DNA of 64,000 bases. Source: a virus (taxonomy: Duplodnaviria > Heunggongvirae > Uroviricota > Caudoviricetes). Of this stretch, positions 2,082-40,420 are shown piece by piece. The notes under the pieces are model-generated. The model made no database searches. It was given only the letters and a program-made list of their open reading frames with translations, and was not told the DNA's origin. Position 1 is the stretch's first letter; the number at the start of each line of letters is the position of its first letter. Position numbers and translations under genes: made by a program. The stretch lies in IMG/VR virus record IMGVR_UViG_2731957818_000004; one strand, given 5' to 3'.

Positions 2082-3641
2082 ATGACAGTTCGGATTGTAT
2101 CGAATGCAGTCAATGCGCTGATTTCTGGCGCTGATGACAACGTGAAACGGCTCGTTCAGGAGATGTTGAGCTATGAAGTGGAGGCTGGTGACTGGAAAGG
2201 AACCAGCACGATGTTCAACTGGAGTAAAAACGCGTTCCCGGCTGGGTTTGCGAAGCCAGTAGCGGCCAACCTTCTGAAAGCTGGCATCAAATGCGTGCAT
2301 GTGCGCAAGGAAAAAGCCCCCGCGCTGGGTAATCCGAACCCGGTAGTTAACCCATTCCCGTATAACCCGGACTATGCGTATCAGGATCAGACTGTGGAAA
2401 CACTGGTGCGCGAAGGGATGATGATTGCCCAGATTGCGACGGGTGGCGGTAAATCGAACGTAGCGTGTAAGGCAGCTGCTCGCATTGGTCGTATGACGCT
2501 GTTTTTAACCACGCGCTCGGTTCTGATGTTCCAGATGGCAGAGAACTTCCAGAAATCCATCGACTACCGCGCGGAGAATGGCGAGCCGTGGTTGAAAGGT
2601 CAGAAAGTTGGGGTGATTGGATCTGGTGAGTTCCAGGTCTCGCGCCATATCAACGTTGCCACGGTGCAGACCCTGGCCAGTTTTCTCGAAGAGCCACCGC
2701 GCGACGCATCGCCGGAGAAAAAACAGTACCACCTGAAGCGCCGGGAACTGGTTAAGCGCTTTCTGTCCAGCGTTTCTCTGCTGATTCTGGAAGAGGCACA
2801 CGAATCATCTGGTTCAAACTTCTACGATATCGCCAGGTTGTGCATCAATGCCGATTACCGTCTGGCGCTGACAGCTACGCCGTTCATGAAGGACTCGACC
2901 GAGGCAAATATGCGTCTCATGGCCGTTGCCGGCCGCATTGAGATAAAGGTAACGGAGAAATATTTGATCGATCGAGGTATTTTAGCGAAACCATACTTTC
3001 TATATCATAAAATCGCGTACACTCCAGACGAGGTGCGGATTAGGGCCGAACTTGCTTCGAAACACCTGAACTTTCGGGTTGGAATGAGTACGGCTTACCA
3101 GAAAGCCTATCAATTAGGCATCGTTTACAATCTGGGCCGCAACGAGGCTATTGTGCGCGAAGCGTTAATGTACAAAAGTCACGGTCTGAACTGTATGACG
3201 CTGGTTCGTTTGAAGCGTCATGGTCAGATTTTGATGGAAATGATGAAGGAAAGCGGCCTGAAGGTCGATTTCATCTACGGAGAATCAAACCAGACTACCC
3301 GACAAGCAAAGCTCAACAGTCTGGCGGCAGGCAAGATAGATGTTCTGATTGGTTCAACCATTCTGGATGTTGGTGTCGACGTTCCAAGCGTAGGGGCGGT
3401 GATTCTGGGTGGTGGCGGCAAAGCCGAAGTTGAGATGCGCCAACGTGTTGGTCGCGGTCTTCGAGCCAAAAAGAATCAGGCTAACGTGTGCTTTATTACC
3501 GACTTTATCGACGTGAGCAACAAATATCTCATGTCGCATTCATATGAGCGGAAGCACATTATCGATACGACGCCTGGGTTTGCCGAGGGCGTATTGCCGG
3601 TGGGTAGCACATTCGATTTCACTGTTTTGAATAGAGAGTAA
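2082..3641 (+). CDS. SF2 DNA helicase (DEAD/DEAH-like; ResIII plus helicase C-terminal domain; UvsW/RecG-like candidate).
   Basis: Motif I QIATGGGKSN, motif II LILEEAHE, motif III LTATPF, motif VI QRVGRGLR. Divergent from the ParB operon. Confidence 0.7.
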   Translation: MTVRIVSNAVNALISGADDNVKRLVQEMLSYEVEAGDWKGTSTMFNWSKNAFPAGFAKPVAANLLKAGIKCVHVRKEKAPALGNPNPVVNPFPYNPDYAYQDQTVETLVREGMMIAQIATGGGKSNVACKAAARIGRMTLFLTTRSVLMFQMAENFQKSIDYRAENGEPWLKGQKVGVIGSGEFQVSRHINVATVQTLASFLEEPPRDASPEKKQYHLKRRELVKRFLSSVSLLILEEAHESSGSNFYDIARLCINADYRLALTATPFMKDSTEANMRLMAVAGRIEIKVTEKYLIDRGILAKPYFLYHKIAYTPDEVRIRAELASKHLNFRVGMSTAYQKAYQLGIVYNLGRNEAIVREALMYKSHGLNCMTLVRLKRHGQILMEMMKESGLKVDFIYGESNQTTRQAKLNSLAAGKIDVLIGSTILDVGVDVPSVGAVILGGGGKAEVEMRQRVGRGLRAKKNQANVCFITDFIDVSNKYLMSHSYERKHIIDTTPGFAEGVLPVGSTFDFTVLNRE

Positions 3642-3981: not shown

Positions 3982-4284
3982 ATGAAACACGTTCTACTTC
4001 CACTGATTACCATCCCCGTTTTACTCCTGAGTGCATGTTCATACCGCCCTGTGTCTGTAGCCGATGCAAAACCGGCGCCGCAGGCCAGAGTTTTCAAATA
4101 CCAGACGTCTGCACCAACCACGCTGGTGGTTATGAGGGACAAAGGTATGATAGGTGCGGGCTGTGACGCACTGAACCCTGCTCGTCAGGAACGCGAGACC
4201 ATCACCAAAGCTGGCGAGACGAAAGTCTTCCGGGTGTTCACCAGCAACGCAGGTGACATCGATATCCTACCAACGACACTGTGA
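3982..4284 (+). CDS. Small lipoprotein.
   Basis: Signal peptide plus lipobox LLLSAC. Confidence 0.55.
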   Translation: MKHVLLPLITIPVLLLSACSYRPVSVADAKPAPQARVFKYQTSAPTTLVVMRDKGMIGAGCDALNPARQERETITKAGETKVFRVFTSNAGDIDILPTTL

Positions 4285-4816
4285 CGATATGACGAATATT
4301 ACTGACATCACCTACGGGATTCCTGCAGAAGTCTGGCCGCGCGATTACACCAACGTGGAGAAGGCGCTGATGTTCTGGCGTAAGTCTCTCATTCCTGTAA
4401 GGGTCACGATGGAAGATGGTCAGGTGTTCTGCATGTACGTTCAGGGTCTCATGTCGTCGCGCAACAAAGTCGATCTTTGCCCTGCCCCGTTCGACAAAGA
4501 AAATCGTATAAGGCTCCCACTTGAGCGAATCAGTACGATTGAATCAGGTGTGACAGAAGGCATTGCGCACGATTTCACGGGTCGGACAACGGTACACCCA
4601 GACTATGTGGACAATCGGCCATCTCGCCGTGATTTCTTCAAAATTTGTCGCCAGGCTCATGAGATGCAGAAGTCTATAAGGGTCTACATGGCGGATGGCC
4701 GTGAACTTGAAGGTGTGTCTTCAGGCGTTGACGCTTGTCAGGTCACACTCAGCGTTGGCGATGGTCGGAAGATGGTCGTCATGTTCGATTGGGTTGAACG
4801 AATTTTACCGTTTTAA
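4253..4816 (+). CDS. Hypothetical protein. The start is uncertain; an alternative ATG lies at 4289.
   Basis: ORF adjacent to the lipoprotein gene. No recognisable motifs. Confidence 0.4.
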   Translation: MTSISYQRHCDDMTNITDITYGIPAEVWPRDYTNVEKALMFWRKSLIPVRVTMEDGQVFCMYVQGLMSSRNKVDLCPAPFDKENRIRLPLERISTIESGVTEGIAHDFTGRTTVHPDYVDNRPSRRDFFKICRQAHEMQKSIRVYMADGRELEGVSSGVDACQVTLSVGDGRKMVVMFDWVERILPF

Positions 4817-5450: not shown

Positions 5451-6101
5451 ATGTCTAACGTTGCTATCTCTAAAAAATCCATCATCGACGCTGCTGTAGT
5501 TATCGCTAACGAATTACAAGTAGCTGCCAACAATGCTACTCAGACTTATAACAATCATTATCAGAATGGTACGCACACAAAAGCAGATAAAGCCAACATG
5601 CTTGCAGCGACTACTAAACTGGCTTATTTCACCAACAACGTTTTAAACGCTGTTAATGATGATAAACTGGTTGGCGTGTTTTACTACGCGATTAAAGCAA
5701 GTAAACAAGCGCCAGAAGTGTTTTTCCGCGAAGCTATGACAAATAGCTATTCTCTCGAAAAATTGGTTTATCTGGTTAAATCTATCAAGTCTGGTAAATG
5801 CGTTTATTCCGTCGCTGATATGTCCGGATCTCGCGTATTCGCATTAATCGAAATGATTAATGATGAATTAGAAACATTCACAAATGGCGCTGTATTCGAT
5901 TTAATGAATGAAGCTAAAAAAGCATGTGAGATTAAATTAGACGCTGGCTATACGCAAGCAAACCAGTTAATTAATCTTTGTGAACGTCTCGGACTGGTCG
6001 AGAAGATCAAAGGAATGGGCGCAGCGAAAAACGGATCGCAACAATATCGCTTTATTAAGAATGATTTTTATAACTATCTGTCTGATGCTTTCAAAGCGTA
6101 A
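5451..6101 (+). CDS. Hypothetical protein encoded in a low-GC island.
   Basis: 216-aa N/K-rich ORF with an AT-rich upstream region and an AGGA-type RBS. Followed by a rho-independent terminator. Confidence 0.5.
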   Translation: MSNVAISKKSIIDAAVVIANELQVAANNATQTYNNHYQNGTHTKADKANMLAATTKLAYFTNNVLNAVNDDKLVGVFYYAIKASKQAPEVFFREAMTNSYSLEKLVYLVKSIKSGKCVYSVADMSGSRVFALIEMINDELETFTNGAVFDLMNEAKKACEIKLDAGYTQANQLINLCERLGLVEKIKGMGAAKNGSQQYRFIKNDFYNYLSDAFKA

Positions 6102-6355: not shown

Positions 6356-6360
6356 GCAAT

Positions 6361-6385
6361 AGCGCCCACTATGGGCGCTTTTTTC
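6361..6385 (+). terminator. Intrinsic terminator, copy 2: an identical hairpin.
   Basis: AGCGCCCACTATGGGCGCT followed by TTTTTTC. Confidence 0.65.
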
Positions 6386-6404
6386 GTTTCAAGATCCGCA
6401 CATC

Positions 6405-6433
6405 ATAACGCGCCATTGTTGGCGCGTTTTTTG
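6405..6433 (+). terminator. Intrinsic terminator.
   Basis: AACGCGCCATTGTTGGCGCGTT followed by TTTTTG. Confidence 0.5.
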
Positions 6434-6839
6434 TCTGAAGTCAGCCAAAACAGACCCAAAATAAGCGCCATAAATGCGCCAATTTAACGCGTTTTTATGT
6501 GTGGTGGTACATACCCATTACCCACAATAAAATCACGTTATAGCGCGTTTTACAGCGTTTTAGCGCGTGGATTATTTTGTCGTGTCGTGGGCGTGATCGT
6601 CTGGCGATAGCTGGCGACGTGATCCGCGCTATCCTTCGGGACGTGTCGGCAATGTTGGCGCTATCCGTGGGCGCTCGCGTATCATTGGCACGTTAGCGCG
6701 ACGTGTACGCGCTTGCAGTGGTTTACCCACGGATTCACATAATCACATAGCGAAAGCTATCTGGATGGCTCAGGGGCTGAAACCCACCAGCGCTACCCCA
6801 GCGCCCCTGCGATATTTTCTGGCAGGATTCTGGGCTTCT

Positions 6840-6960
6840 CCCGCTCTGTTTTCTACATAAAGGCAAACCCAGCCGTTTCCCGAAAATTCCCTGGCCGTTT
6901 CCCTTCGGTTCCCCGAACAGCCCTCTGGCCGTTTCTGAAATTCCCTGCGGCAGCTGGTGG
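6840..6960. repeat. Tandem degenerate repeats of about 25 bp (GGCCGTTTCCCGAAAATTCCCT-like).
   Basis: cagccgtttcccgaaaattccctggccgtttcccttcggttccccgaacagccctctggccgtttctgaaattccctgcgg. Confidence 0.5.
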
Positions 6961-6962
6961 AC

Positions 6963-6993
6963 GAAAAGAAAGGGGCGTTTCCAGCCCCTCCCC
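6963..6993 (-). terminator. Intrinsic terminator after 6996..7478.
   Basis: AGGGGC-TGGAAAC-GCCCCT plus a T-run on the minus strand. Confidence 0.5.
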
Positions 6994-6995
6994 TC

Positions 6996-7478
6996 TTACT
7001 TGCCATTCAGGATGTGAATGCGGTTCTTTCCGTACACCTCTTTCACGTATTCCCCGCACGAGACACTCCACGAGTCGATTCCTGCTTCGTAGGTGACGTT
7101 TTTGCACTTGATGGCATTGTTGGCGATACGCATCCCCTCCCCCACTGCTTCCTGTTCGCTGAAGTCGAACCCGGATTCTGTTTTAACCCATAGCGCGATC
7201 TGCGTGGCGAACTCGATGAGTTTTGACTGGCAGAAGCGACCGCTGCGTACCGGGAAGATGAATACGCCAAATCCCGAAGTGGAGACATACGCTTTTTCAA
7301 ATACGCGTTTATGGCGACGGTTGCAGATAATGTCATTGGTGATCTGCTGTTTCTCTTTCCCGGACAGCTCGATGGTTACATTGTCACGCCAGGCGCCCAG
7401 CACGCTTTTCTCGTCATCAGAGAACGTCACAGAAATATGGCCATGCGCAGGGGTGTTAACAGTAGCGATAAAGTTCAT
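6996..7478 (-). CDS. Hypothetical early protein.
   Basis: 160-aa ORF with the class A promoter/5'UTR motif and an AAAGGA RBS upstream. A terminator hairpin lies downstream at 6963-6993. Confidence 0.6.
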   Translation of the reverse strand: MNFIATVNTPAHGHISVTFSDDEKSVLGAWRDNVTIELSGKEKQQITNDIICNRRHKRVFEKAYVSTSGFGVFIFPVRSGRFCQSKLIEFATQIALWVKTESGFDFSEQEAVGEGMRIANNAIKCKNVTYEAGIDSWSVSCGEYVKEVYGKNRIHILNGK

Positions 7479-7492
7479 GGTGATAATCCTTT

Positions 7493-7505
7493 AAACAACT
7501 TGTTT
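7493..7505. promoter_or_regulatory. Class A palindrome (AAACAA-N-TTGTTT core of GAAAACAA-N-TTGTTTTC) in the 5' leader of gene 6996..7478.
   Basis: Between the -10 GATAAT and the RBS. Confidence 0.6.
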
Positions 7506-7682
7506 TCTTGTTGGTTTAATTATCGCTACGCGCATAAGGCGTCCAAGCGTTCTGTTCCGGCAGCTGGTGGCCGGCAGGGAGTCGGAGGGTTGTTCGGTAG
7601 CCTGGCGACAAGAGGTGGGTGTTTTTAGCCTGCGGGAACAGGATGGTCATTTAAGGCCACCAGCATGAGTGGCCTCGTCCTC

Positions 7683-7964
7683 TTAGTGGAGCAAACCGAC
7701 GTCGATGGTATCGCCGGAGCCATCCACGCGGATCATCAGCATGGCGAAGGCATTTAATGGGTAGCCTGCGTGCCAGTCCGGGAAGCGGTCATCGCGCATG
7801 AAGTCGGCAATGTCATAAACGCTGTCTTCAAAGCGGAAGAAGCGGGCATCACATTGTTCGTCCTGTTCAACGTGATCCATTTCCTGCTGCTCTTCCGGCG
7901 ACAGGTCGAGCCAGGATTCCAGCCATACGTTTTCAGCTTTAGGGGAGATAGTGAAATCGGTCAT
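7683..7964 (-). CDS. Small acidic early protein. Start moved to MTDF.
   Basis: GGAGG RBS 8 nt before the ATG at 7964. The ORF-track start lies inside the conserved UTR motif. Confidence 0.55.
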   Translation of the reverse strand: MTDFTISPKAENVWLESWLDLSPEEQQEMDHVEQDEQCDARFFRFEDSVYDIADFMRDDRFPDWHAGYPLNAFAMLMIRVDGSGDTIDVGLLH

Positions 7965-7983
7965 GTGCATATCCTCCATGCGT

Positions 7984-7998
7984 AAACATCTTGTTTTC
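7984..7998. promoter_or_regulatory. Class A palindrome, leader of 7683..7964. The extended -10 TGCGATAAT overlaps a TTATCCACA DnaA-box-like 9-mer.
   Basis: Seen directly. Confidence 0.55.
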
Positions 7999-8090
7999 TT
8001 GTTGGTGTAATTATCGCAATGTGGATAAGGCAAAAAACATTTTGTTATCGGGAATAAGAAAATGGCGCGGGGTACGCGCCATTGGAGGGA

Positions 8091-8486
8091 TTAAGCGAAT
8101 ACGCTTTCCGGGATGTAGGTTTCAACCGGTTCGTTGGACACGATGCGCAGACCGTATTGTCCAAGCCAGGTGTTGCTCGGGTTCAAGTGGGAGGTGTACA
8201 GCTCGTCTGCTTTCGCCATCATCTTCTCAAACATCTCTTTGTTTACGCCGCGGAAATACGTTTCCAGTTTCAGCAGCATTGGTTCGGATGCGTTGCTGAT
8301 GCTCTGGAAGCCTACGGTGTACACCCCATCCTCTTCTGTCCCGGTGCGAATCAGGTTGGTGGTGAGCACTTCAGTCCCGTTCGTGCTGTCACGCAGAATA
8401 GCGGTCAGTTTTGCAACTTTTCCGCCTGAGGTTGTTTCTGACGCATAGTACAAATCAAGAACCAGGTTTTCACGAATTACAGTCAT
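8091..8486 (-). CDS. Hypothetical early protein. Start moved to MTVIREN.
   Basis: GGGAGA RBS before the ATG at 8486. The track GTG start lies in the UTR. Confidence 0.55.
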   Translation of the reverse strand: MTVIRENLVLDLYYASETTSGGKVAKLTAILRDSTNGTEVLTTNLIRTGTEEDGVYTVGFQSISNASEPMLLKLETYFRGVNKEMFEKMMAKADELYTSHLNPSNTWLGQYGLRIVSNEPVETYIPESVFA

Positions 8487-8560
8487 TTTTGGTCTCCCTG
8501 TTGTTGACCTGATTATATTATTGTCATAGGTAAGCACTTACAATACAGGTAAGCAAAAAA

Positions 8561-8581
8561 GCCCCGAAGGATGGACGGGGC
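8561..8581 (-). terminator. Intrinsic terminator after 8615..8926.
   Basis: GCCCCGTCCATCCTTCGGGGC plus TTTTTT on the minus strand. Confidence 0.6.
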
Positions 8582-8614
8582 TGTCGTGGGGACGACTAAT
8601 CGCTTTTGCACATG

Positions 8615-8926
8615 TCAGGCTGTCGCCAGGAGAGAGGCACGCTGGATTTCTTGCTGGGCTACTTTGTTCGCTTCCAGTAGCGCCTGTTCCAGCTCTCCTT
8701 CCGGCCAGATGATCTGTTTTGCCATCCACCCTCTTCCACTCTGGCGACGCACACTCATTACGTAACGCGTGCGGGAACCATTGTCGAACGAGACCAGCGT
8801 CTCTTTGAACAGGCGAATGGCAGTGCCGTTGGCGATGATATCGAGCAGGGTCAGCTGGCTCATTACGGTTGGTTTTTCTTTACGTGGCTGGCCCGCGCTC
8901 AGTTTGGTGATCATCGCGTTTTTCAT
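8615..8926 (-). CDS. Hypothetical early protein.
   Basis: Class A motif plus GGAG RBS upstream. A terminator lies downstream at 8561-8581. Confidence 0.55.
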   Translation of the reverse strand: MKNAMITKLSAGQPRKEKPTVMSQLTLLDIIANGTAIRLFKETLVSFDNGSRTRYVMSVRRQSGRGWMAKQIIWPEGELEQALLEANKVAQQEIQRASLLATA

Positions 8927-8938
8927 AATTCACTCCGT

Positions 8939-8954
8939 AAACAACTTGTTTTCT
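8939..8954. promoter_or_regulatory. Class A palindrome, leader of 8615..8926, with extended -10 TGGTATTAT.
   Basis: Seen directly. Confidence 0.6.
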
Positions 8955-9065
8955 TGTTGGTGTAAATAATACCAGCGAGAAAACGGCTACAAAGCATAGC
9001 GTTACGGTGCTGCGCTGCCCGGAGGTTGCAAACAGCAAAAAGCCACCGTGCTGGTGGCCTCACGC

Positions 9066-9284
9066 TTAATCTTCGTCGTCCGGGAACTCGATGTGTACCG
9101 CGTCCACCAGCTCCCGCTTTTCATCTTCACTCAGCAGGTGCCAGATCTCCTTCCCTTTGGGTGATTCCCCTTCAGCCGGGACGAACGACCACAACTTGCG
9201 GTACAACTCCGGCCCCACAGCATCCAGGCACTCAGCCAGGGAATCCACGCTCCACACCTCAACCATCACAGGCATCTTAATCAT
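9066..9284 (-). CDS. Small acidic protein. Start moved to MIKMPVM.
   Basis: GAGGGTGAAG RBS before an ATG 10 nt after the upstream stop. The longer track ORF overlaps the neighbouring gene in another frame. Confidence 0.45.
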   Translation of the reverse strand: MIKMPVMVEVWSVDSLAECLDAVGPELYRKLWSFVPAEGESPKGKEIWHLLSEDEKRELVDAVHIEFPDDED

Positions 9285-9294
9285 CTCTTCACCC

Positions 9295-9510
9295 TCACTT
9301 CGTTTCTGACGTTGTGCAGTTCCACGCGACGGACATTGGGTTGTCCTCGATATGGAAATCAAACGTCCCTTCTCTGTATCCTTCAGAGATGAGCGTCGCC
9401 ACGCGACCAGCAACATCCTGAGAGCGGATAACGTCATCGAGGGAGATCTCACACTCGGAGGACGCTTCCTCGCCACAGAGGGTGATGCTGATATTCAGAT
9501 GCTTGTACAT
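9295..9510 (-). CDS. Small acidic early protein.
   Basis: AGGAGG RBS and a class A motif upstream. Confidence 0.55.
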   Translation of the reverse strand: MYKHLNISITLCGEEASSECEISLDDVIRSQDVAGRVATLISEGYREGTFDFHIEDNPMSVAWNCTTSETK

Positions 9511-9527
9511 GTGTTCCTCCTTTGTCT

Positions 9528-9542
9528 AAACACGTTGTTTTC
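9528..9542. promoter_or_regulatory. Class A palindrome, leader of 9295..9510, with extended -10 TGCGATAAT.
   Basis: Seen directly. Confidence 0.6.
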
Positions 9543-9779
9543 TTATTGGTGTTATTATCGCAATAAGACATAGGCGAAAAAGGATTTTATGTCGGGAAAG
9601 CCAGGCTGGGCAGTGAGCATCCGGGAACGACACGAGAGCCAGTATTTACGATATTCTGCTCTACGCGCGCCGCAGGGCTGGTGGGCAGAATTTTCTTCTT
9701 CCCGAAAACCTACTGAAATTGCTTGAGACCCGAGGATGGTCTGGCAGAATGGAGTTCAGCAGCTGCACAAGAGGGAACG

Positions 9780-10010
9780 ACACTCCCCCGCGATTTTCAG
9801 GCGAGCGAAGAGTAAGGCGCACTCCCGAGGATTTCCCGCACCGCTCCCGCAGCCGTCCCTCGCTCTGTACCGGGATGTACCCGTTTCCCGACCGGCAGCC
9901 AGCCTTTTCCCGGTTCGTATAACGGCACTCCCACCGTTTCCCTGAAAACCTCCAGCCTTTTCCCTGCGGCGACGCTCCCGTTCCTAAAAAGGGACATGGC
10001 CTTTTCCCTG
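9780..10010. repeat. Pyrimidine-rich repeat block with CCTTTTCCC / CCGTTTCCC motifs.
   Basis: cagccttttcccgg, cagccttttccctg, tggccttttccctg, cccgtttcccg, caccgtttccctg. Confidence 0.5.
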
Positions 10011-10229
10011 GATGGCCCGAAGGCTGACCGAAGGGGGGTGGTAGGGACGTTACGGGGGATGAGAACTATGGCTTGAATTTCTACGGAGAAAGTAGCGATA
10101 CCCCTCTTCCCCTTCCCACTTATACCTCCAGTTAAATCTCTACGGATTTTCTCTCCTATGAACGTGCAAACCTTCCCCCTGATAACGCTCTATACGGCTA
10201 GTATTCCTTTGGGTGAAATGGGTGGTTTG

Positions 10230-10740
10230 TTCTCTCTACCGGCATATGTGGTTTCGTTCTTCTTGAGGTGGTTCTTCTCTGTGTTTTCGTCTGGGTTGTT
10301 CTCGTCGTTTTGGTGAGTGTTCATCTCCGTGTATGGAGTAATGGCAGGTGCGCTTTTCTCTTCGTTTACGTGAAATGATGGAAGTGTGGGTAATGGCAGT
10401 AGGGCGCTTTAGTTGTTCTCCGCATATGAAGTAAAGGCGTTCCCTGCTATTCAGGAATTTGCGCTCTCTTCCGGGGTAATGGTGGGTAAACGAGATTGTG
10501 ACGGTTCCTGTTCTGGTCTGGGTTTGTCCGGGGTTTCGTTCTGACTGTTCTTCTCCGTATATTGGGTAATGGCGTGTCTGGGTTCGCGTGCGCGAGCTGC
10601 GTTCTCGGTTGCCTGGGAATATTAGGTGGGTGGTCTGTAGCCTGGGGCAATGAGGTGGGTCTTTTCGGTAGCCTGACAGGAAGAGGTGGGTGTTTCCGGG
10701 ATTGTGGGTAATGGCGTCTCTGGGTTTCCTGTGGGTGTGG
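10230..10740. repeat. Direct-repeat array with two unit types: TCTCCGYRTATGRRGTAAWGGC (4 copies) and GGGTAATGGCG (5 copies). The plus strand is G/T-rich and A-poor.
   Basis: Repeat units seen at 10232, 10324, 10408 and 10551; GGTAATGG copies at 10340, 10388, 10473, 10565 and 10703. Confidence 0.6.
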
Positions 10741-10741
10741 T

Positions 10742-10778
10742 TAACTTGTTTTCTTATGCCTGAAAACAACTTGTTTAG
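10742..10778. promoter_or_regulatory. Two adjacent class A palindrome copies with no obvious downstream gene.
   Basis: ttaacttgttttc ... gaaaacaacttgttta. Confidence 0.4.
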
Positions 10779-11152
10779 ACATCCAATATAACGCAACGGG
10801 AGCGCTTCTGAGCGCTTCTGTTTTTGGGTGGTATCACGAGTCGTTTTTGACGTTTTGGTCGCAGGGAGACGTTTTCTGGTGCGTAGGATTTTGGGTATAA
10901 GAGATGGCGTGCGAAAACGTCAACTTTTTAGACCAAATCAGGGGAAAGCGTTGACTTTACGTTGATGTGTTATTTTTTTGTTTTCTTATGGGTGTAATTA
11001 GTTTAAATGCCTTGTCACGCCTAGGCTGGGGTAGGTTGGAAAGGTGGGGAAAGTGGCGATCAACGGACTCTTATAGAAATCTACATTGTTGATGTAGTAA
11101 TTGCTCTGAATATCAATATAGTTGTCATACCCCCTCAACAACTGGAGTTGTT

Positions 11153-11458
11153 ATGAGTACGAGCGTTTGGACGTGGAAAGGGAAGTACTTCGGCTACATC
11201 AGCAATAACAATCTATATACCTATAGAGGAAAGCATGTTGGCAAATTTTCCGGTGATAACGTCTTTGACAGATACGGAAAATATATTGGCGAGATAATGA
11301 GTAATAACAGACTAATCACCAGTCGCCACAAAAGAAATCTCAGAGGTTCGAGTTTTACACCTTCCAACGGAGGCTCACGGGGTAGATATGCAAATTATAG
11401 CGGTTACGCGATGTACGCAGGCTATGAGGACTTCCCCCTGCCAGAAGAGTTCGAATGA
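11153..11458 (+). CDS. Repeat-containing small protein with three GK.xG.I..NN.L motifs of about 16 aa.
   Basis: GGAG RBS. The internal triple repeat is visible in the translation. Confidence 0.45.
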   Translation: MSTSVWTWKGKYFGYISNNNLYTYRGKHVGKFSGDNVFDRYGKYIGEIMSNNRLITSRHKRNLRGSSFTPSNGGSRGRYANYSGYAMYAGYEDFPLPEEFE

Positions 11459-11495
11459 CTAAAGATCGTGCGTCCACAATTTGGACGCACGATAA

Positions 11496-11816
11496 TTACC
11501 AATCCCATGCAGGCAGCCCATCCACCAGCTCGGCGTCGCAATCAAAGTGAACTGCGTCAAAGCCGGCATCCAGTACCTTCTGAATGTTCTCGATGGTTTG
11601 CCATGTGACGCCGTAATCACGTAGCTCTTCTTTCCAGTCGTTGCCACGCATACCTGCGCGGACAATCCATCCGTACTCCGTGCCGTGTACCCAATTCAGT
11701 CCACGATCTGTTAGTGGGTCGAAACAGATATTAGGCAGACACTCAGAGTCATGCTGTGTAACGTGGGCGGTGCTGATCACCGCCGTCTTATACGATTCGG
11801 TGATTTTCAGCATCAT
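11496..11816 (-). CDS. Hypothetical protein.
   Basis: ATGA overlap with the upstream gene. Confidence 0.45.
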   Translation of the reverse strand: MMLKITESYKTAVISTAHVTQHDSECLPNICFDPLTDRGLNWVHGTEYGWIVRAGMRGNDWKEELRDYGVTWQTIENIQKVLDAGFDAVHFDCDAELVDGLPAWDW

Positions 11817-12046
11817 GCCTTCTCCTTTGGAAACAGAATGTCGGCCGTGTCAGAAATGACATCCCAATTCACGCCGACGCTGGCGTCATGGCACTCTTTG
11901 ATTTTTCGCAAAACCTGAACGCACTGTTCGTCAGTCAGGTCTGGTCGCACTTCACCTACATCTTCCTTGTGCCACATCACCATCAGCAGCGGCTCGTCTT
12001 CTGGGTAGTTCTCCAGCTTTTCGATGATATCTTTTGCGGTTCCGAA
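11813..12046 (-). CDS. Small acidic protein. Start moved to MFGTAKD.
   Basis: AAGGAG RBS 7 nt before the ATG at 12046. The track start is a TTG inside the conserved UTR. Confidence 0.5.
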   Translation of the reverse strand, partial: FGTAKDIIEKLENYPEDEPLLMVMWHKEDVGEVRPDLTDEQCVQVLRKIKECHDASVGVNWDVISDTADILFPKEKA

Positions 12047-12061
12047 CATGATTAGCTCCTT

Positions 12062-12122
12062 AAACAACTTGTTTTCTTGTTGGTGTTATTATCTCAAATA
12101 ACAAAAGGCAGAAAACAAGATG
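12062..12122. promoter_or_regulatory. Class A palindrome pair flanking the -10 of gene 11813..12046, one at about -40 and one at about +10.
   Basis: taaacaacttgttttc at 12062 and gaaaacaagatgttta at 12102. Confidence 0.55.
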
Positions 12123-20544: not shown

Positions 20545-20566
20545 TGATAGGTAAATACTTACTTAT
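20545..20566. promoter_or_regulatory. Class B palindrome GATAGGTAAATACTTACTTATC.
   Basis: Upstream of 19922..20416. Confidence 0.55.
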
Positions 20567-21167
20567 CGTTTTGTGACAAAAATCCAATGTCACGCTTGTG
20601 AGGCATATCAGCTGCGGAGTAGGCGGCGATCTTCGCCAGGCGGTCACACATTTCGTTCTCGCGATGACCGGCATGACCTTTAACCCACTTCCAGCGGACA
20701 TTGTGACGGCTGGCGGCCGCATCGAGACGTTTCCAGAGATCGACGTTTTTGACTGGCTTCTTCTCAGACGTGATCCATCCGTTACGCTTCCAGCCTTTCA
20801 TCCAGAGCGTCATGCCGTTTTTAAGATACTGGCTGTCGGAATGCAGGATCACGTTGCAGGGGTACTTCAGACGCTCCAGCGCAATCAGGGCGCCCATCAT
20901 CTCCATCCGATTGTTGGTCGTGCTGTGGAAACCCTCAGAAAGCTCGCGCTCTTCGCCTCGATACTGGAGAACGATGCCGTAACCGCCCGGTCCGCCCGGA
21001 TTTTTGAGGCAAGAGCCATCACTGAATACTTTTACGGTTTTGAGCTGGGGATTGAACTCGACTACGGGGGTTTTGAAGTTGGTACGGGATTGCTGGTGGG
21101 TTTGGTATCTGGCTTTGGACTTCGTGCGGCAGCCAGTATGTTGCCGGGCTGGGGTCTTGGTCGTCAT
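20559..21167 (-). CDS. rnhA: Ribonuclease HI.
   Basis: [17 protein letters not shown]...TNNRMEMM...LHSDSQY...[16 protein letters not shown] pattern of RNase H1. Confidence 0.85.
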
Positions 21168-38612: not shown

Positions 38613-38647
38613 GGCCGCGCCACGTCTGGCCTCACGGGGTATTCGCG

Positions 38648-38748
38648 TATGCTGTCAGCGGTAAAAGATATGCTGTCAGCGGTGAGCGATATGCTGCCAT
38701 CTGTTTTTGGTATGCTGCTAACGGCAAATAACGTATGCTGTCAGCGGT
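38648..38748 (+). repeat. Five direct 15-bp iterons (TATGCTGYCAGCGGT) at 21-bp spacing upstream of repA, incC-like.
   Basis: Copies at 38648, 38669, 38690, 38711 and 38734. Confidence 0.85.
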
Positions 38749-38769
38749 TGGAAGCGGAAAGGTGTCAAC

Positions 38770-39870
38770 ATGCCCACTCGAAAGAAAAAAGAAACCAAAA
38801 ACAATGTGTTAGACGACAGTATAGATAATTTTGAAGAAGAATCCCTCGAACTATACACAGGCGATCTTGTTCCAAACAGCAACAATACTGTTCAGCCTAT
38901 AGCGTTGATGAGGCTTGGTTTGTTCGTGCCCACGCTAAAGGGAACAAAGAACAGCAAGCGGAACAGACCTAATGAGATCGACGCCTCAAAAGAACTGGTT
39001 CAGCTGGAGGTTGCTCGTTCAGAAGGGTATTCCGACATCAAGATAACAGGTCCACGCCTGGATATGGATCACGATTTTAAAACGTGGGTCGGCGTCGTGC
39101 GCTCTCTGGCCGAGTACGGGGAGCCGAGTGGCCGCGTCGAGTTGAGCATTACCAAGTTCGCCAAATTCTGCGGCTATCCGTCGTCGCAGATCCGCAAGAC
39201 GCTGCGTGACAGGCTCACCAACAGCCTCCTGAAGATCATGCGCACCACGCTCTCTTTCCAGCGCACGTATGAAGAAAAGAACGTCGACGGCTCGAACAAA
39301 ATCTCGCTCCTGATGGTTCACCTGGTGAACAGCGTCGATTACAACGAGCAAAAAGACTCCATCATCTTTCACGCAGAGCCGAAGCTGGCCGAACTCTATC
39401 GCTTCGACCACAAAGTGCTGCTCCAGCTAAAAGTCATTAACAAGCTGCCGCGCAAAGAGACCGCCCAGGCGCTGTATACGTTCATCGAAAGTCTTCCAGC
39501 CAAACCGGCACCAGTATCGCTGGCAAGGCTTCGAGCCAGACTCAATTTGAGTAGTCGTAACGTCAGCTCGCAGAACCAGACCATCCGCAACGGCTTAAAA
39601 ACGCTGGAGGAATTGGGCTATCTCGAATACAGCGAGATTAAGCGTGGCCGCTCGATTTACATTCAGATCCACAGCCGCAATCCCAAGCTCAAAGCCTCTT
39701 CGGTCAAAGAGGAAATGCCCGCGCTTCCGGATAAGCCGGTCGAGAACACGTCTTCTGGTGTCGATGCAAAACAAAACCTCGTGAACAAAATCACCGAGTT
39801 ATCGCAGAACCTGACGCCCGAAAACATCAAGCTGATCGAGATTCTCTCCAACAGCCTGAAACTCCTTTGA
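38770..39870 (+). CDS. repA: Iteron-binding plasmid replication initiator RepA (P1/pMT1 family).
   Basis: Flanked on both sides by iteron arrays. NSNNTVQPIALMRLG and YTFIESLP..PAP.SLARLRARLNL match the P1 RepA family as I recall it. GGAAAGG RBS. Confidence 0.8.
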   Translation: MPTRKKKETKNNVLDDSIDNFEEESLELYTGDLVPNSNNTVQPIALMRLGLFVPTLKGTKNSKRNRPNEIDASKELVQLEVARSEGYSDIKITGPRLDMDHDFKTWVGVVRSLAEYGEPSGRVELSITKFAKFCGYPSSQIRKTLRDRLTNSLLKIMRTTLSFQRTYEEKNVDGSNKISLLMVHLVNSVDYNEQKDSIIFHAEPKLAELYRFDHKVLLQLKVINKLPRKETAQALYTFIESLPAKPAPVSLARLRARLNLSSRNVSSQNQTIRNGLKTLEELGYLEYSEIKRGRSIYIQIHSRNPKLKASSVKEEMPALPDKPVENTSSGVDAKQNLVNKITELSQNLTPENIKLIEILSNSLKLL

Positions 39871-40347
39871 TATGCTGTCAGCGGTAAAACGTATGCTACC
39901 AGCGGCACAAGATATGCTGTCAGCGGTATTTTTCACATAAAGTATGCTGTCAGCGGCAAAAAGATATGCTGTGAGCGGTAATTTTTAGAAAATGTATGAT
40001 ATCAGCGGGCGATTTTGCTCATTAGCCCGCCGTTATCTGGTCTGCGCGCCTCTTCGATCCCATTTCCCGCGACAACTTCCCCAGTGGTCACTAACCCCGC
40101 AAGCCGCATGAAATAAGGGTTTGCACTCACTAACTTGATTGTTTTTCTCGTCCTGACAGAGCGCCCACAGAGGCGAAAAACGCCGATATGCTGCCAGCGG
40201 TATGAGGTGATGTTTGGATATGCTGTGAGCGGTAAACCTTGTCTTGTGGTCATAACGTATGCTGTCAGCGGTAAATTGAGCGACTAAAAGATATGCTGTC
40301 AGCGGTAAAAAAGAGGAGAATTTAGACAAACGTATGCTGTCAGCGGT
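39871..40347 (+). repeat. incA-like downstream iteron array: 11 copies of the 15-bp iteron in two clusters (6 + 5) separated by about 175 bp.
   Basis: Copies at 39871, 39892, 39913, 39943, 39965, 39995, 40188, 40220, 40257, 40293 and 40333. Confidence 0.85.
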
Positions 40348-40420
40348 AGGCACTATGATGTTGCTTCTACGGGCAAGATAACCACTATGGGAAGTGGTTC
40401 TTCCCATAGTGGATAATGGA

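What the first reader, a model, noticed from the sequence alone, without database searches (positions are those of the whole stretch)
9580..11150. A 1.5-kb non-coding region with iteron-like direct repeats and a sharp strand-composition switch
There is no credible ORF here; the only long ORF, 10236..10796, is Arg-rich low-complexity. The first half (about 9740-10200) is strongly pyrimidine-rich on the plus strand, with repeated CCTTTTCCC/CCGTTTCCC units that echo the 6840-6960 repeats. From about 10230 the plus strand flips to G/T-rich and A-poor, and carries 4 copies of a 25-bp unit plus 5 copies of GGGTAATGGCG at 50-140-bp spacing. Two class A palindromes and an unpaired -10-like element lie at the distal end (10742-10990). 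The arrangement (direct repeats, composition flip, promoter-like elements) fits a lytic replication origin, a packaging (pac) initiation region, or a long structured non-coding RNA.
Basis: seen in the sequence. Interest (0 to 1): 0.65.

Follow-up and report, generated by a model that had tools for sequence, protein, structure and literature searches.

The report
Conserved non-coding repeat region of phage-plasmids
This 1.5-kb stretch encodes no protein or folded RNA, yet SSU5-like phage-plasmids of gut bacteria keep it under selection as ordered repeats with a lopsided base composition; it most likely controls or starts phage-mode DNA replication, but this is untested.

Summary
The window is an SSU5-like phage-plasmid. 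Region 9600-11081 has no gene, no conserved ORF and no codon periodicity. Even so, 841 plasmids and 12 phages carry it. It diverges about half as fast as synonymous sites of neighbouring genes.

Its repeats exceed composition-matched shuffles. They are six CCAGCCKTTTCCC units on a 22/31-bp lattice, five GGGTAATGGC units, and three 31-nt tandem units whose copy number varies between relatives. One strand of 10230-10740 is about 70% G+T in every lineage. A distant lineage that barely aligns keeps the same order of parts.

It is not the plasmid origin: repA sits at 38.8 kb with different iterons. It is not near the terminase. It shows no conserved RNA fold, and the equivalent region is close to silent in a published lysogen transcriptome.

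The best reading (confidence about 0.3) is a cis-acting DNA control region. The likeliest role is a lytic origin fired by non-coding transcription under probable repressor control, which runs into a central tract that favours RNA:DNA hybrids. Live rivals are a transcription insulator with Rho loading sites on both sides, and a non-replicative protein-binding hub. Function is inferred, not shown.

The parts
9522..9598 (-). Promoter and probable-operator cassette (extended -10 TGcGATAAT, then a variant of the AAACAAnTTGTTT palindrome, AAACACGTTGTTT here) of the small gene 9295-9510. It marks the left edge of the region.
   Evidence: One of 4-5 copies of a 36-72-nt cassette upstream of minus-strand small genes (families D1/D2). 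Palindrome hits. Conserved 0.88-0.90.
9677..9684 (+). Chi site GCTGGTGG inside a conserved block
   Evidence: A Chi site sits at the equivalent place in the distant lineage L070 (14893-14900).
9723..9750 (+). Predicted sigma-70 promoter pointing into the region (TTGAGA, 16 nt, TGgCAGAAT)
   Evidence: Flagged by the consensus scan. The hexamers are conserved while the spacer varies in the Klebsiella, E. coli and Cronobacter lineages. It is absent from SSU5 itself, where homology starts at 9844, and is not evident in L070, so it is not a core part.
9877..10008 (+). Iteron-like array M1: CCAGCCKTTTCCC at 9877, 9899, 9930, 9952 and 9996, with a degenerate copy at 9974. Spacings are 22, 31, 22, 22 and 22 bp.
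   Evidence: It is paralogous to a roughly 100-bp module at 6869-6950. Cyrano has the same 22-bp spacing (95334, 95356, 95378). L070 has the motif but at 26 and 17 bp.
10033..10058 (+). G-cluster on the plus strand (GGGGGGTGGTAGGGACGTTACGGGGG)
   Evidence: For plus-strand RNA, the 40-nt window 10032-10071 has the largest RNA:DNA over DNA:DNA stability gain in the whole 64 kb. The equivalent tract ranks first in L070.
10093..10132 (-). Purine-rich tract on the minus strand, core 10101-10117 (plus strand CCCCTCTTCCCCTTCCC). This is the point where the composition flips.
   Evidence: Ranks second in the 64 kb for hybrid stability of minus-strand RNA. Conserved. In L070 it expands to about 200 nt of about 90% pyrimidine on the plus strand.
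10230..10740 (+). G+T-rich, A-poor core. It carries the 25-32-bp units (10228, 10314, 10407, 10542), GGGTAATGGC (M2: 10336, 10388, 10474, 10564, 10706) and TCTGGGTT (10290, 10517, 10577, 10719).
   Evidence: The composition is kept in all lineages, and G<->T is the commonest substitution type. No conserved RNA fold.
10599..10696 (+). Three tandem 31-nt units (M3): GGTAGCCTG-N7-GAGGTGGGT
   Evidence: 4 matches against 0.04 expected in the window. This is the most conserved block, at 0.92. L012 has one extra unit. Further copies lie at 7588-7625 here and as 2-4 tandem units in Cyrano and L070.
10743..10776 (.). Probable operator cluster: half-site AACTTGTTTTC plus the perfect palindrome AAACAACTTGTTT
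   Evidence: The same palindrome occurs about 20 times in the window against 3.8 expected. Repressor binding is inferred, not shown.
10895..10923 (-). Conserved promoter-like element pointing left into the non-coding core: TTGACG (10923-10918), 17 nt, TTATAC (10900-10895)
   Evidence: Read from the sequence. TTGAC(G/T)-N17-TTATA(C/T) is kept with an unrelated spacer sequence in the Klebsiella, E. coli and L070 lineages. It is not flagged by the consensus scan, because the -10 lacks the final T.
10958..11008 (.). Conserved T-rich, easily melted tract that overlaps a decayed copy of the promoter cassette
   Evidence: The 50-bp duplex stability is -57.1 kcal/mol against a window mean of -71.6 with sd 4.8. 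Conservation 0.84. Family D2 copy at 10965-11000.
11055..11081 (.). Right boundary element GGCGATCAACGGACTCTTATAGAAA, holding the region's only GATC. In most relatives it continues with TCAATTTGTGACCGCCAATGTCAAC, forming an imperfect inverted repeat.
   Evidence: The junction is identical and is followed by more than 10 unrelated cargo contexts. L070 has a perfect 9-bp inverted repeat CAGATCAAC/GTTGATCTG around CTCTTATAGA.

Best explanation
Region 9600-11081 is a cis-acting DNA control region peculiar to SSU5-like phage-plasmids. It is neither a gene nor a folded RNA.

It consists of oriented repeat families that look like protein-binding sites: M1 iterons, and M2 and M3 arrays. These flank a central pair of G-clusters, one on each strand. 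Promoter-like elements next to a probable operator palindrome point into the region.

The most likely role is the origin, or origin-control locus, for phage-mode (lytic) replication. The proposed sequence of events is:
1. When the prophage is derepressed, transcription starts at the conserved leftward promoter (10895-10923).
2. It crosses about 600 nt whose RNA is A/C-rich and cannot fold.
3. It reaches the purine-rich tract at 10132-10093 and leaves a stable RNA:DNA hybrid.
4. The element's own RNase HI and SF2 helicase could process this hybrid into a primer, or remove it.
5. The repeats bind a phage protein that organises or limits firing. One candidate is the conserved winged-helix protein encoded at 5451-6101.

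Shown here: the region is non-coding, under purifying selection, has repeats beyond chance, keeps its composition and its order of parts across lineages, has conserved promoter-like hexamers, and holds the peaks of hybrid stability.

Inferred: transcription, repressor control, hybrid formation, priming, the identity of the binding protein, and replication itself.
For: - Non-coding.
- Under constraint: divergence is 0.29 (Klebsiella lineage) and 0.32-0.35 (E. coli lineage), against 4-fold-site divergence of 0.24-0.66, mostly 0.45-0.64, in adjacent genes.
- Widespread: 841 plasmids and 12 phages carry it, all SSU5-like.
- Architecture outlasts sequence: L070, whose neighbouring protein is only 55% identical, keeps a 1.64-kb gap with the same order of parts and stronger skew.
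- Iteron-like M1 sits on a 22/31-bp lattice and is duplicated 3 kb away. M3 copy number changes by whole units.
- Copies of M1 and M3 outside the region lie just downstream of terminator-like hairpins (only the g160 hairpin has a good U-tract). This favours DNA-level action.
- The leftward promoter-like element has conserved hexamers and a variable 17-nt spacer in four lineages. The recurrent palindrome lies 120 bp downstream.
- The strongest hybrid-favouring tracts of the 64 kb sit at the centre, and the same is true in L070.
- The plasmid replicon is elsewhere and uses unrelated iterons.
- Relatives annotate an rnhA gene whose position maps to window 20559-21167. An SF2 helicase that matches T4 UvsW among others lies at 2082-3641.
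- This is the largest non-coding stretch seen in the 98 kb of Cyrano annotation examined.
- There is precedent for non-coding, transcribed origins in extrachromosomal prophages (PMC7157519).
Against: - There is no direct evidence of replication start, transcription or protein binding.
- Classical origin marks are absent: no DnaA box, no IHF consensus, 1 GATC in 1570 bp, and no adjacent Rep-type gene.
- In Cyrano the helicase and primase genes lie about 60 kb away.
- The -10 of the conserved leftward promoter is weak (TTATAC).
- The rightward promoter is missing from SSU5, a working phage, and from L070.
- M1 phasing is not kept in L070.
- An origin does not by itself explain why about 600 bp must stay 70% G+T.
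- The hybrid-stability scan uses Sugimoto 1995 parameters recalled from memory.
- Repeats shared with region A and with a cassette intergenic spacer fit a regulatory or architectural role equally well.
Confidence: 0.3

Rival explanations
1. Transcription insulator. The region would act as a two-sided Rho-dependent termination zone separating the variable cargo hot spot, which is expressed in lysogens, from the early lytic small-gene cassette on the same strand. RNA entering from either side is untranslated, unstructured and C-rich/G-poor. Rho would therefore load and stop it before the centre.
For: - Four of the six longest C>G stretches on the minus strand of the 64 kb lie in 10256-11127. The plus strand has one at 9808-10021.
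- Consensus folding energy of minus-strand RNA is about 0.
- In Cyrano lysogens the cargo gene CYRAN_102 reads 57 units and the next ORF, inside the region, reads 5, which is the floor.
- Position is fixed: in the 30-odd relatives examined, the region sits immediately after the cargo junction.
- This is the only model here that directly explains the composition flip.
Against: - Known rut sites are about 80-100 nt, not 900.
- The model does not explain the conserved repeat motifs, their copies downstream of terminators elsewhere, the paralogous module in region A, or the promoters that fire into the region.
- The drop in Cyrano already occurs at the right edge of the region.
Confidence: 0.2
2. 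A protein-binding DNA hub with a non-replicative role. Possibilities include a centromere-like or nucleoprotein anchoring site, a titration sink for an early regulator, or a DNA-entry pause region like the T5 injection stop signal.
For: - Three oriented repeat families have conserved cores and variable spacers and copy number.
- Modules are shared with region A, 3 kb away, and with a cassette spacer.
- Region A lies between convergent units, a usual place for such sites.
- A strongly conserved protein with a C-terminal winged-helix-like domain is encoded next to region A.
- T5 offers a formal parallel: conserved untranslated repeat regions share modules about 3 kb apart and flank poorly conserved early ORFs (10.1101/866236).
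Against: - A ParA-type partition gene lies elsewhere in Cyrano, and its centromere would be expected next to it.
- There are no DnaA boxes of the kind proposed for T5.
- If packaging is headful, which is unknown here, genome ends would be permuted and a fixed injection stop would make little sense.
- The model does not explain the composition.
Confidence: 0.2
3. A functional unstructured RNA. The A/C-rich then purine-rich minus-strand transcript would act as a protein sponge or decoy, for example for the element's FljA-like RNA-binding protein, for Hfq or for Rho.
For: - A conserved leftward promoter-like element has no ORF downstream.
- The RNA cannot fold.
- The motifs all share one orientation.
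- A full-length Flag1_repress (FljA-like) protein is encoded 5 kb away. FljA is known, from memory of the literature, to act on fliC mRNA. The gene is kept even in Klebsiella lineages.
Against: - Copies of M1 and M3 elsewhere lie beyond intrinsic terminators, where they would not be transcribed.
- Signal in lysogens is at or near the floor.
- GGA enrichment is not consistent across lineages: P 0.006, 0.024 and 0.36, with ANGGA not enriched. This rejects a CsrA sponge.
Confidence: 0.1
4. Packaging (pac) initiation site recognised by the small terminase.
For: Direct repeats and a boundary inverted repeat containing GATC.
Against: - The terminase genes are about 11-13 kb away in the syntenic relatives Cyrano and L070, and pac sites normally lie in or beside terS.
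- There is one GATC rather than an array.
- Ends of fetched loci are scattered across the region and do not cluster, and they may be storage boundaries rather than real contig ends.
Confidence: 0.03
5. A long structured non-coding RNA.
For: The plus-strand RNA folds more stably than the minus strand (-360 against -286 kcal/mol over 1074 nt), as expected for G/U-rich sequence.
Against: - Across the core 10150-10660, consensus folds are no better than column-shuffled alignments on either strand. The modest scores right of 10660 (z down to about -3) have tiny energies and come from the operator palindrome.
- No Rfam match even at E<=1.
- The central hairpin has z -1.4.
- Indels of 12-31 nt occur between lineages.
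Confidence: 0.03
6. Decaying remnants of former small-gene cassettes, drifting neutrally.
For: A decayed copy of the promoter cassette lies at 10965-11000, and the operator palindrome is not followed by a gene.
Against: - Divergence is about half that of synonymous sites next door.
- Motif cores, order of parts and composition are kept in a lineage that barely aligns.
Confidence: 0.03

Closest known systems
Transcription-primed (R-loop) origins: T4 oriF/oriG, the ColE1 RNA II origin, and the RNA-based prophage origins of cluster A mycobacteriophages (PMC7157519)
   Same: - A non-coding region entered by a promoter.
- A tract where RNA:DNA is favoured over DNA:DNA.
- The element carries RNase HI and an SF2 helicase related to UvsW.
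- No initiator gene lies next to it.
   Different: - There is no sequence similarity.
- It is about 1.5 kb rather than 0.1-0.6 kb.
- It carries three repeat families and an extreme G+T strand bias that those origins lack.
- No antisense control RNA is evident.
- Nothing has been shown experimentally.
Iteron origins with transcriptional activation (lambda ori, P1 oriL under the C1-controlled promoter P53), and P4 ori plus crr
   Same: - Direct repeats at about two helical turns.
- A second cluster of the same repeats a few kb away, as in P4 ori and crr.
- A probable operator (a palindrome that recurs near promoters across the element) beside a promoter that reads into non-coding DNA.
   Different: - No Rep, O or alpha-type initiator gene contains or adjoins the repeats.
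- The only Rep gene (38770-39870) has unrelated iterons.
- No DnaA or IHF sites.
[quoted passage not shown]
   Same: - A conserved untranslated region of more than 1 kb, crowded with direct repeats and palindromes.
- It shares modules with a second non-coding region about 3 kb away.
- It flanks small, poorly conserved early ORFs.
- Its function is likewise unproven.
   Different: - The phage family is unrelated.
- T5's hallmark paired DnaA boxes are absent here.
- The shared modules here are mainly direct, not inverted.
- No terminal repeat is known for SSU5-like phages.
Rho-dependent terminators (rut sites)
   Same: Untranslated, unstructured, C-rich/G-poor RNA on the inbound side in both directions.
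   Different: It is ten times longer than known rut regions and full of conserved sequence motifs.

Membership tests
Iteron-type replication origin | Tandem direct repeats of 17-22 bp periodicity in one orientation | tested here: met
   M1 lies at 9877, 9899, 9930, 9952, 9974 and 9996 (22/31 bp). Cyrano has 22, 22 and 53 bp. In L070 the spacing is 26 and 17 bp.
Iteron-type replication origin | Cognate Rep-type initiator gene adjacent to or containing the iterons | tested here: not met
   Neighbouring proteins have no Rep, Pfam or PDB match. The element's repA (38770-39870) is flanked by its own, different iterons ATATGCTGTCAGCGGTAA.
Iteron-type replication origin | Host factor sites and unwinding element: DnaA boxes, IHF, a GATC cluster, an AT-rich DUE | tested here: not met
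   No TTWTNCACA and no WATCAANNNNTTR in 9580-11150. One GATC. The only feature present is a conserved low-stability T-rich tract at 10958-11008.
Iteron-type replication origin | Supports autonomous or trans-complemented replication | not testable with these tools
   Needs cloning and a replication assay.
Transcription-primed (R-loop) origin | Promoter reading into non-coding DNA | tested here: inconclusive
   The conserved TTGAC(G/T)-N17-TTATA(C/T) has a weak -10. The rightward TTGAGA-16-TGgCAGAAT is absent from SSU5 and L070. No transcript data exist for lytic growth, and lysogen signal is near the floor.
Transcription-primed (R-loop) origin | Tract where the RNA:DNA hybrid is more stable than the duplex | tested here: met
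   10032-10071 (plus-strand RNA, rank 1 of 64 kb) and 10093-10132 (minus-strand RNA, rank 2). The equivalent tracts rank 1-2 in L070. The parameters were recalled from memory.
Transcription-primed (R-loop) origin | Hybrid and replication start demonstrated at the site | not testable with these tools
   Needs DRIP-seq and marker-frequency or 5'-end mapping of nascent DNA.
Phage pac site | Lies in or beside the small terminase gene, and the packaging series starts there | tested here: not met
   terS and terL lie about 11.5 kb from the region in L070 and about 12.6 kb in Cyrano. Termini cannot be tested with these tools.
Structured non-coding RNA (any Rfam family or a new one) | Conserved secondary structure or a match to a curated model | tested here: not met
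   Alifold z-scores are about 0 and consensus MFE about 0 in the core. No Rfam hit at gathering score or at E<=1.
Rho-dependent terminator | At least 80 nt of untranslated, unstructured, C>G RNA upstream of the stop point | tested here: met
   Minus strand 10256-11127 and plus strand 9808-10021 have C/G of at least 1.5. The RNA is unstructured and no ORF is present.
Rho-dependent terminator | Rho-dependent 3' ends | not testable with these tools
   Needs Term-seq with and without bicyclomycin.
RNA anti-CRISPR / solitary CRISPR repeat | Close match to a host CRISPR repeat, including its hairpin | tested here: not met
   The best resemblance is the unit at 10318-10345 against the type I-F repeat (recalled from memory). 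It reaches only about 62% with gaps, and the 4-bp hairpin is present in one copy only (reading).
CsrA sponge RNA | Dense, conserved GGA/ANGGA motifs | tested here: not met
   GGA is enriched in the window lineage (19 against 11, P 0.006) but not in the Klebsiella lineage (11 against 9.6). ANGGA is not enriched.

The most novel reading that the evidence does not exclude
The region would be a new kind of phage origin. Two inward-facing, repressor-controlled non-coding transcripts are kept unfolded by an enforced A/C-rich (or C-rich) composition. Each ends in a G-cluster on its own strand, about 40 bp from the other. This would give a pair of opposed RNA:DNA hybrids that prime bidirectional lytic replication, with the repeat arrays binding a phage winged-helix protein that gates firing. 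A second, equally unexcluded novel reading is that the 900-nt unstructured C-rich transcript acts as a decoy or loading sink for Rho.
Probability: 0.12. Interest if true: 0.75.

Novelty: new variant of a known kind. Interest (0 to 1): 0.5.

Why it matters
SSU5-like phage-plasmids are common in clinical Klebsiella, E. coli, Enterobacter, Salmonella and Citrobacter, and they carry resistance genes (PMC9600943). How they switch from plasmid-mode to phage-mode replication is not known, and no lytic origin has been described in the papers searched here.

This region is the largest non-coding stretch seen in the parts of the genome examined. It is conserved under selection and sits exactly at the edge of the cargo hot spot. 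If it is the lytic origin or its control locus, it gives a handle on induction, copy-number bursts and transfer of cargo genes. If it is an insulator, it explains how cargo can be expressed in lysogens without leaking into lytic genes.

Either way, the enforced 70% G+T strand bias over hundreds of bases, kept across lineages that barely align, is an unusual constraint that needs explaining.

Tried and rejected
- Coding. Rejected: no codon periodicity, no ORF conserved between lineages, and indels that break frames.
- Known RNA family or conserved fold. Rejected.
- Plasmid origin. Rejected: repA and its iterons lie at 38.6-40.3 kb, and their motifs are unrelated.
- Pac site. Disfavoured because of its distance from the terminase.
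- DnaA, IHF, GATC or G-quadruplex signatures. None found.
- P1 parS boxes. Only chance-level hits.
- CsrA sponge. Rejected.
- CRISPR-repeat mimic. The resemblance is too weak, and it rests on memory only.
- Minigene (AUG-NNN-UAA) reading of the 25-bp units. Rejected, because the AUG is not conserved.
- TATAAGA as a recurrent phage promoter. Only 5 sites in the window, with no shared context.
- Central G/C-cluster hairpin. Not significant.
- GC-skew as an origin marker. Uninformative: the cumulative skew follows gene orientation and the region's own G-richness.
- Contig ends as physical termini. Ends of fetched loci are scattered and probably reflect storage boundaries.
- A large cointegrate plasmid carrying part of the region. 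It is flanked by IS5 and is uninformative.
- Neighbouring small proteins. No Pfam, PDB or PADLOC function.
- Literature. No paper on this region was found. One 2026 preprint on SSU5-like copy number could not be opened.
Full report
WHAT THE WINDOW IS. The window is part of an SSU5-like phage-plasmid. The finding region matches an Enterobacter plasmid at 96.6% identity and Salmonella phage SSU5 at 93% over 73% of its length. At lower stringency it is found in 841 plasmids, 474 of them covering at least 80% of it, and in 12 phage records. All are SSU5-like elements of Klebsiella, Escherichia, Enterobacter, Salmonella, Citrobacter and Cronobacter. The flanking genes run on the window's minus strand. 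To the left lies a cassette of six small genes of unknown function, each with its own promoter cassette. To the right lies a variable cargo hot spot.

- No gene is annotated here by PGAP in the closest relatives.
- Substitutions show no third-position excess. The largest phase fraction is 0.34-0.46, against 0.46-0.57 in the gene 8615-8926.
- Stop-free segments differ in frame and length between lineages.
- The G+T-rich core (10230-10740: A 12.7, C 17.6, G 33.9, T 35.8 %) is the compositional extreme of the 64 kb, more than 5 sd from the mean.
- I add three tandem 31-nt units at 10599-10696 and a paralogous 100-bp iteron module in a second non-coding region, region A at 6360-6995.

THE REGION IS UNDER SELECTION AS NON-CODING DNA. 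Four to six lineages are available. The window differs from the Klebsiella lineage at 29% of aligned sites and from the E. coli lineages at 32-35%. Four-fold degenerate sites of the neighbouring genes differ at 24-66%, mostly 45-64%. Conservation is spread over the whole 1.5 kb, with peaks on the repeat cores and on 10905-10990.

The base composition of the core is the same in every lineage, and G<->T is the commonest substitution type there. A distant lineage, L070, was found through a neighbouring protein that is only 55% identical. It has a 1.64-kb gap at the same place with the same order of parts:
- promoter cassette and Chi;
- GCCGTTTC iterons;
- a plus-strand G-cluster;
- a conserved AATTTMTACGGARAG block;
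- a polypyrimidine tract, here 200 nt long;
- G+T-rich arrays with GGGTAATGGC and GGTAGCC..GGTGGGT units;
- a GGGTATAAGA block;
- an inverted-repeat boundary.
Its skew is even stronger, with AT skew down to -0.8.

WHAT IT IS NOT.
- It is not the plasmid origin. repA lies at 38770-39870, flanked by nine copies of an unrelated iteron.
- It is not near the terminase, which lies 11-13 kb away in the syntenic relatives Cyrano and L070, beyond the left end of this window.
- It is not a known or a conserved structured RNA. Rfam is empty even at E<=1. In sliding windows across 10150-10660 the alignment consensus energy is about 0 on the minus strand and no better than column-shuffled controls on the plus strand.
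- It has no DnaA boxes, IHF consensus or G-quadruplex motifs, and only one GATC where about seven are expected.
- In the published LF82 transcriptomes, the two ORFs that the Cyrano annotators placed over the equivalent region read 5 (the floor) and 14 units, while the cargo gene just upstream reads 57. There is therefore no abundant RNA in lysogens (PMC9928086).

ANATOMY. From left to right:
- the promoter and probable-operator cassette of the gene 9295-9510;
- a conserved Chi site;
- a predicted rightward promoter at 9723-9750, which is lineage-limited;
- a variable segment;
- the M1 iterons at 9877-10008;
- a plus-strand G-cluster at 10033-10058;
- a conserved 40-bp spacer;
- a purine tract on the minus strand at 10101-10117, which is where the composition flips;
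- the G+T-rich core, with the 25-32-bp units, the M2 motifs and TCTGGGTT;
- the M3 tandem units;
- the operator-like palindrome at 10764-10776, with a flanking half-site;
- a very conserved block at 10893-10965. It holds a leftward promoter-like element (TTGACG, 17 nt, TTATAC) whose hexamers are kept while the spacer sequence differs in four lineages;
- a conserved, easily melted T-rich tract at 10958-11008;
- a boundary element, after which more than ten unrelated cargo contexts begin at the same nucleotide.

DNA OR RNA? Two things favour action at the DNA level. First, the copies of M1 and M3 outside the region sit just downstream of terminator-like hairpins of minus-strand genes: M1 at 6869-6936 after the g160 hairpin, and M3 at 7588-7625 after the g94 hairpin. 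Minus-strand RNA would seldom reach them there, although only the g160 hairpin is followed by a good U-tract. Second, M3 changes copy number by whole units between relatives (3 here, 4 in L012; 2-4 tandem copies in the cassette spacer of Cyrano and L070), as binding-site arrays do.

THE COMPOSITION FLIP. RNA entering from the right on the minus strand would be C-rich and G-poor almost continuously from 11127 to 10256. RNA entering from the left on the plus strand would be so from 9808 to 10021. At the centre, each inbound RNA meets a G-cluster on its own strand. In a scan of RNA:DNA against DNA:DNA stability, these two tracts rank first (plus-strand RNA, 10032-10071) and second (minus-strand RNA, 10093-10132) in the 64 kb. 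Their equivalents rank first and second on both strands in L070 (the Sugimoto parameters were recalled from memory). Two models fit this layout. In one, two inward transcripts each end in a stable hybrid, giving a transcription-primed origin. In the other, Rho loads on both sides and stops transcription before the centre, giving an insulator.

BEST EXPLANATION AND ITS LIMITS. I rate a cis-acting DNA control region, most likely the lytic origin or its control locus, at about 0.3. The reasons are:
- iteron-like repeats;
- a probable operator palindrome beside promoters that read into non-coding DNA, as at lambda ori and P1 oriL (established knowledge);
- the hybrid-favouring centre;
- an rnhA gene annotated in relatives and mapping into the window, plus an SF2 helicase that matches T4 UvsW among other helicases;
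- no Rep-type initiator found beside the region and no other large non-coding region in the parts of the genome examined;
- precedent for non-coding transcribed origins in extrachromosomal prophages (PMC7157519).

Against it stand the missing classical origin marks, the weak -10, the absence of the rightward promoter from SSU5 itself, and the fact that an origin does not explain why the composition must be kept.

The insulator model (0.2) explains the composition and the position, but not the motifs. A non-replicative binding hub (0.2) explains the motifs and region A, but not the composition. T5's injection stop region is a striking formal parallel whose own function is unproven (10.1101/866236). 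An unstructured RNA decoy (0.1) stays open. The pac site, structured RNA and neutral decay readings are each at about 0.03.

VERDICT. This is a real, conserved, uncharacterised cis element.

Noticed in passing
window, whole; cluster at 6784-11529: Chi (GCTGGTGG) occurs 21 times in 64 kb against 2.05 expected. Eight copies lie within 4.7 kb around the finding, in both orientations. Those at 7657 and 9050 lie inside terminator-like hairpin stems.
   Followed up: partly
window, about 20 sites, e.g. 7493, 8939, 10764, 12062, 12490, 12806, 17963, 18686, 19685, 51004, 57311: The 13-bp palindrome AAACAAnTTGTTT occurs 20 times at up to 2 mismatches, against 3.8 expected. In the small-gene cassette near the finding it lies just downstream of an extended -10 box (TGcGATAAT) within a 36-72-nt promoter cassette. 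This looks like the operator set of one element-wide regulator. The distant lineage L070 keeps it.
   Followed up: partly
window 6360-6995 (region A): A second conserved non-coding region (66-98% identity in relatives) lies between convergent transcription units. It holds CGTTTTAGCG x3, several TAGCGC/GCGCTA motifs, an M1 iteron module paralogous to 9877-9975, and an inverted copy of ATTGTGGGTAATGG (6515-6528).
   Followed up: partly
window 4253-4816 (+): A full-length FljA-like protein (Pfam Flag1_repress, E 5e-96). In Salmonella, FljA represses phase-1 flagellin post-transcriptionally. Here the gene is conserved in phage-plasmids of non-motile Klebsiella, so it may have a different target.
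   Followed up: no
window 5451-6101 (+): A 216-aa protein found only in SSU5-like elements. AlphaFold2 (pLDDT 84) predicts an N-terminal helical hairpin plus a C-terminal winged-helix-like domain. It is the most conserved gene in the neighbourhood and a candidate binder of the repeat arrays.
   Followed up: partly
window 11055-11081 and relatives (e.g. L001 7199, L006 2935): A sharp, identical junction: GGCGATCAACGG.YTCTTATAGAAA..GTGACCGCCAATGTCAAC, followed by more than 10 unrelated cargo contexts. L070 has a perfect 9-bp inverted repeat at the same place. It may be a recombination or insertion hot-spot signal.
   Followed up: partly
window 11153-11458 (+): A 4-fold beta-flower protein gene (Pfam Bflower, E 9e-9) sits on the opposite strand right at the cargo junction. 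It is present in only some relatives, and an ATTGCTCT motif lies upstream of it.
   Followed up: no
window 38635-40349: The plasmid replicon: repA (38770-39870, +) flanked on both sides by at least nine copies of ATATGCTGTCAGCGGTAA. This is the classical origin plus control-locus layout.
   Followed up: yes
window 11496-12067 and 6996-9510: The small genes around the region include DUF5983 and (by PGAP annotation of relatives) DUF1380 proteins, and DUF4942 lies further on. The rest have PHROG families of unknown function and no PADLOC hit. Together they look like an early, possibly anti-defence, gene set.
   Followed up: partly
window 9580-11150: GATC is nearly absent (1 site against about 7 expected from 283 in the window), although relatives of the element annotate an adenine methyltransferase.
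   Followed up: no
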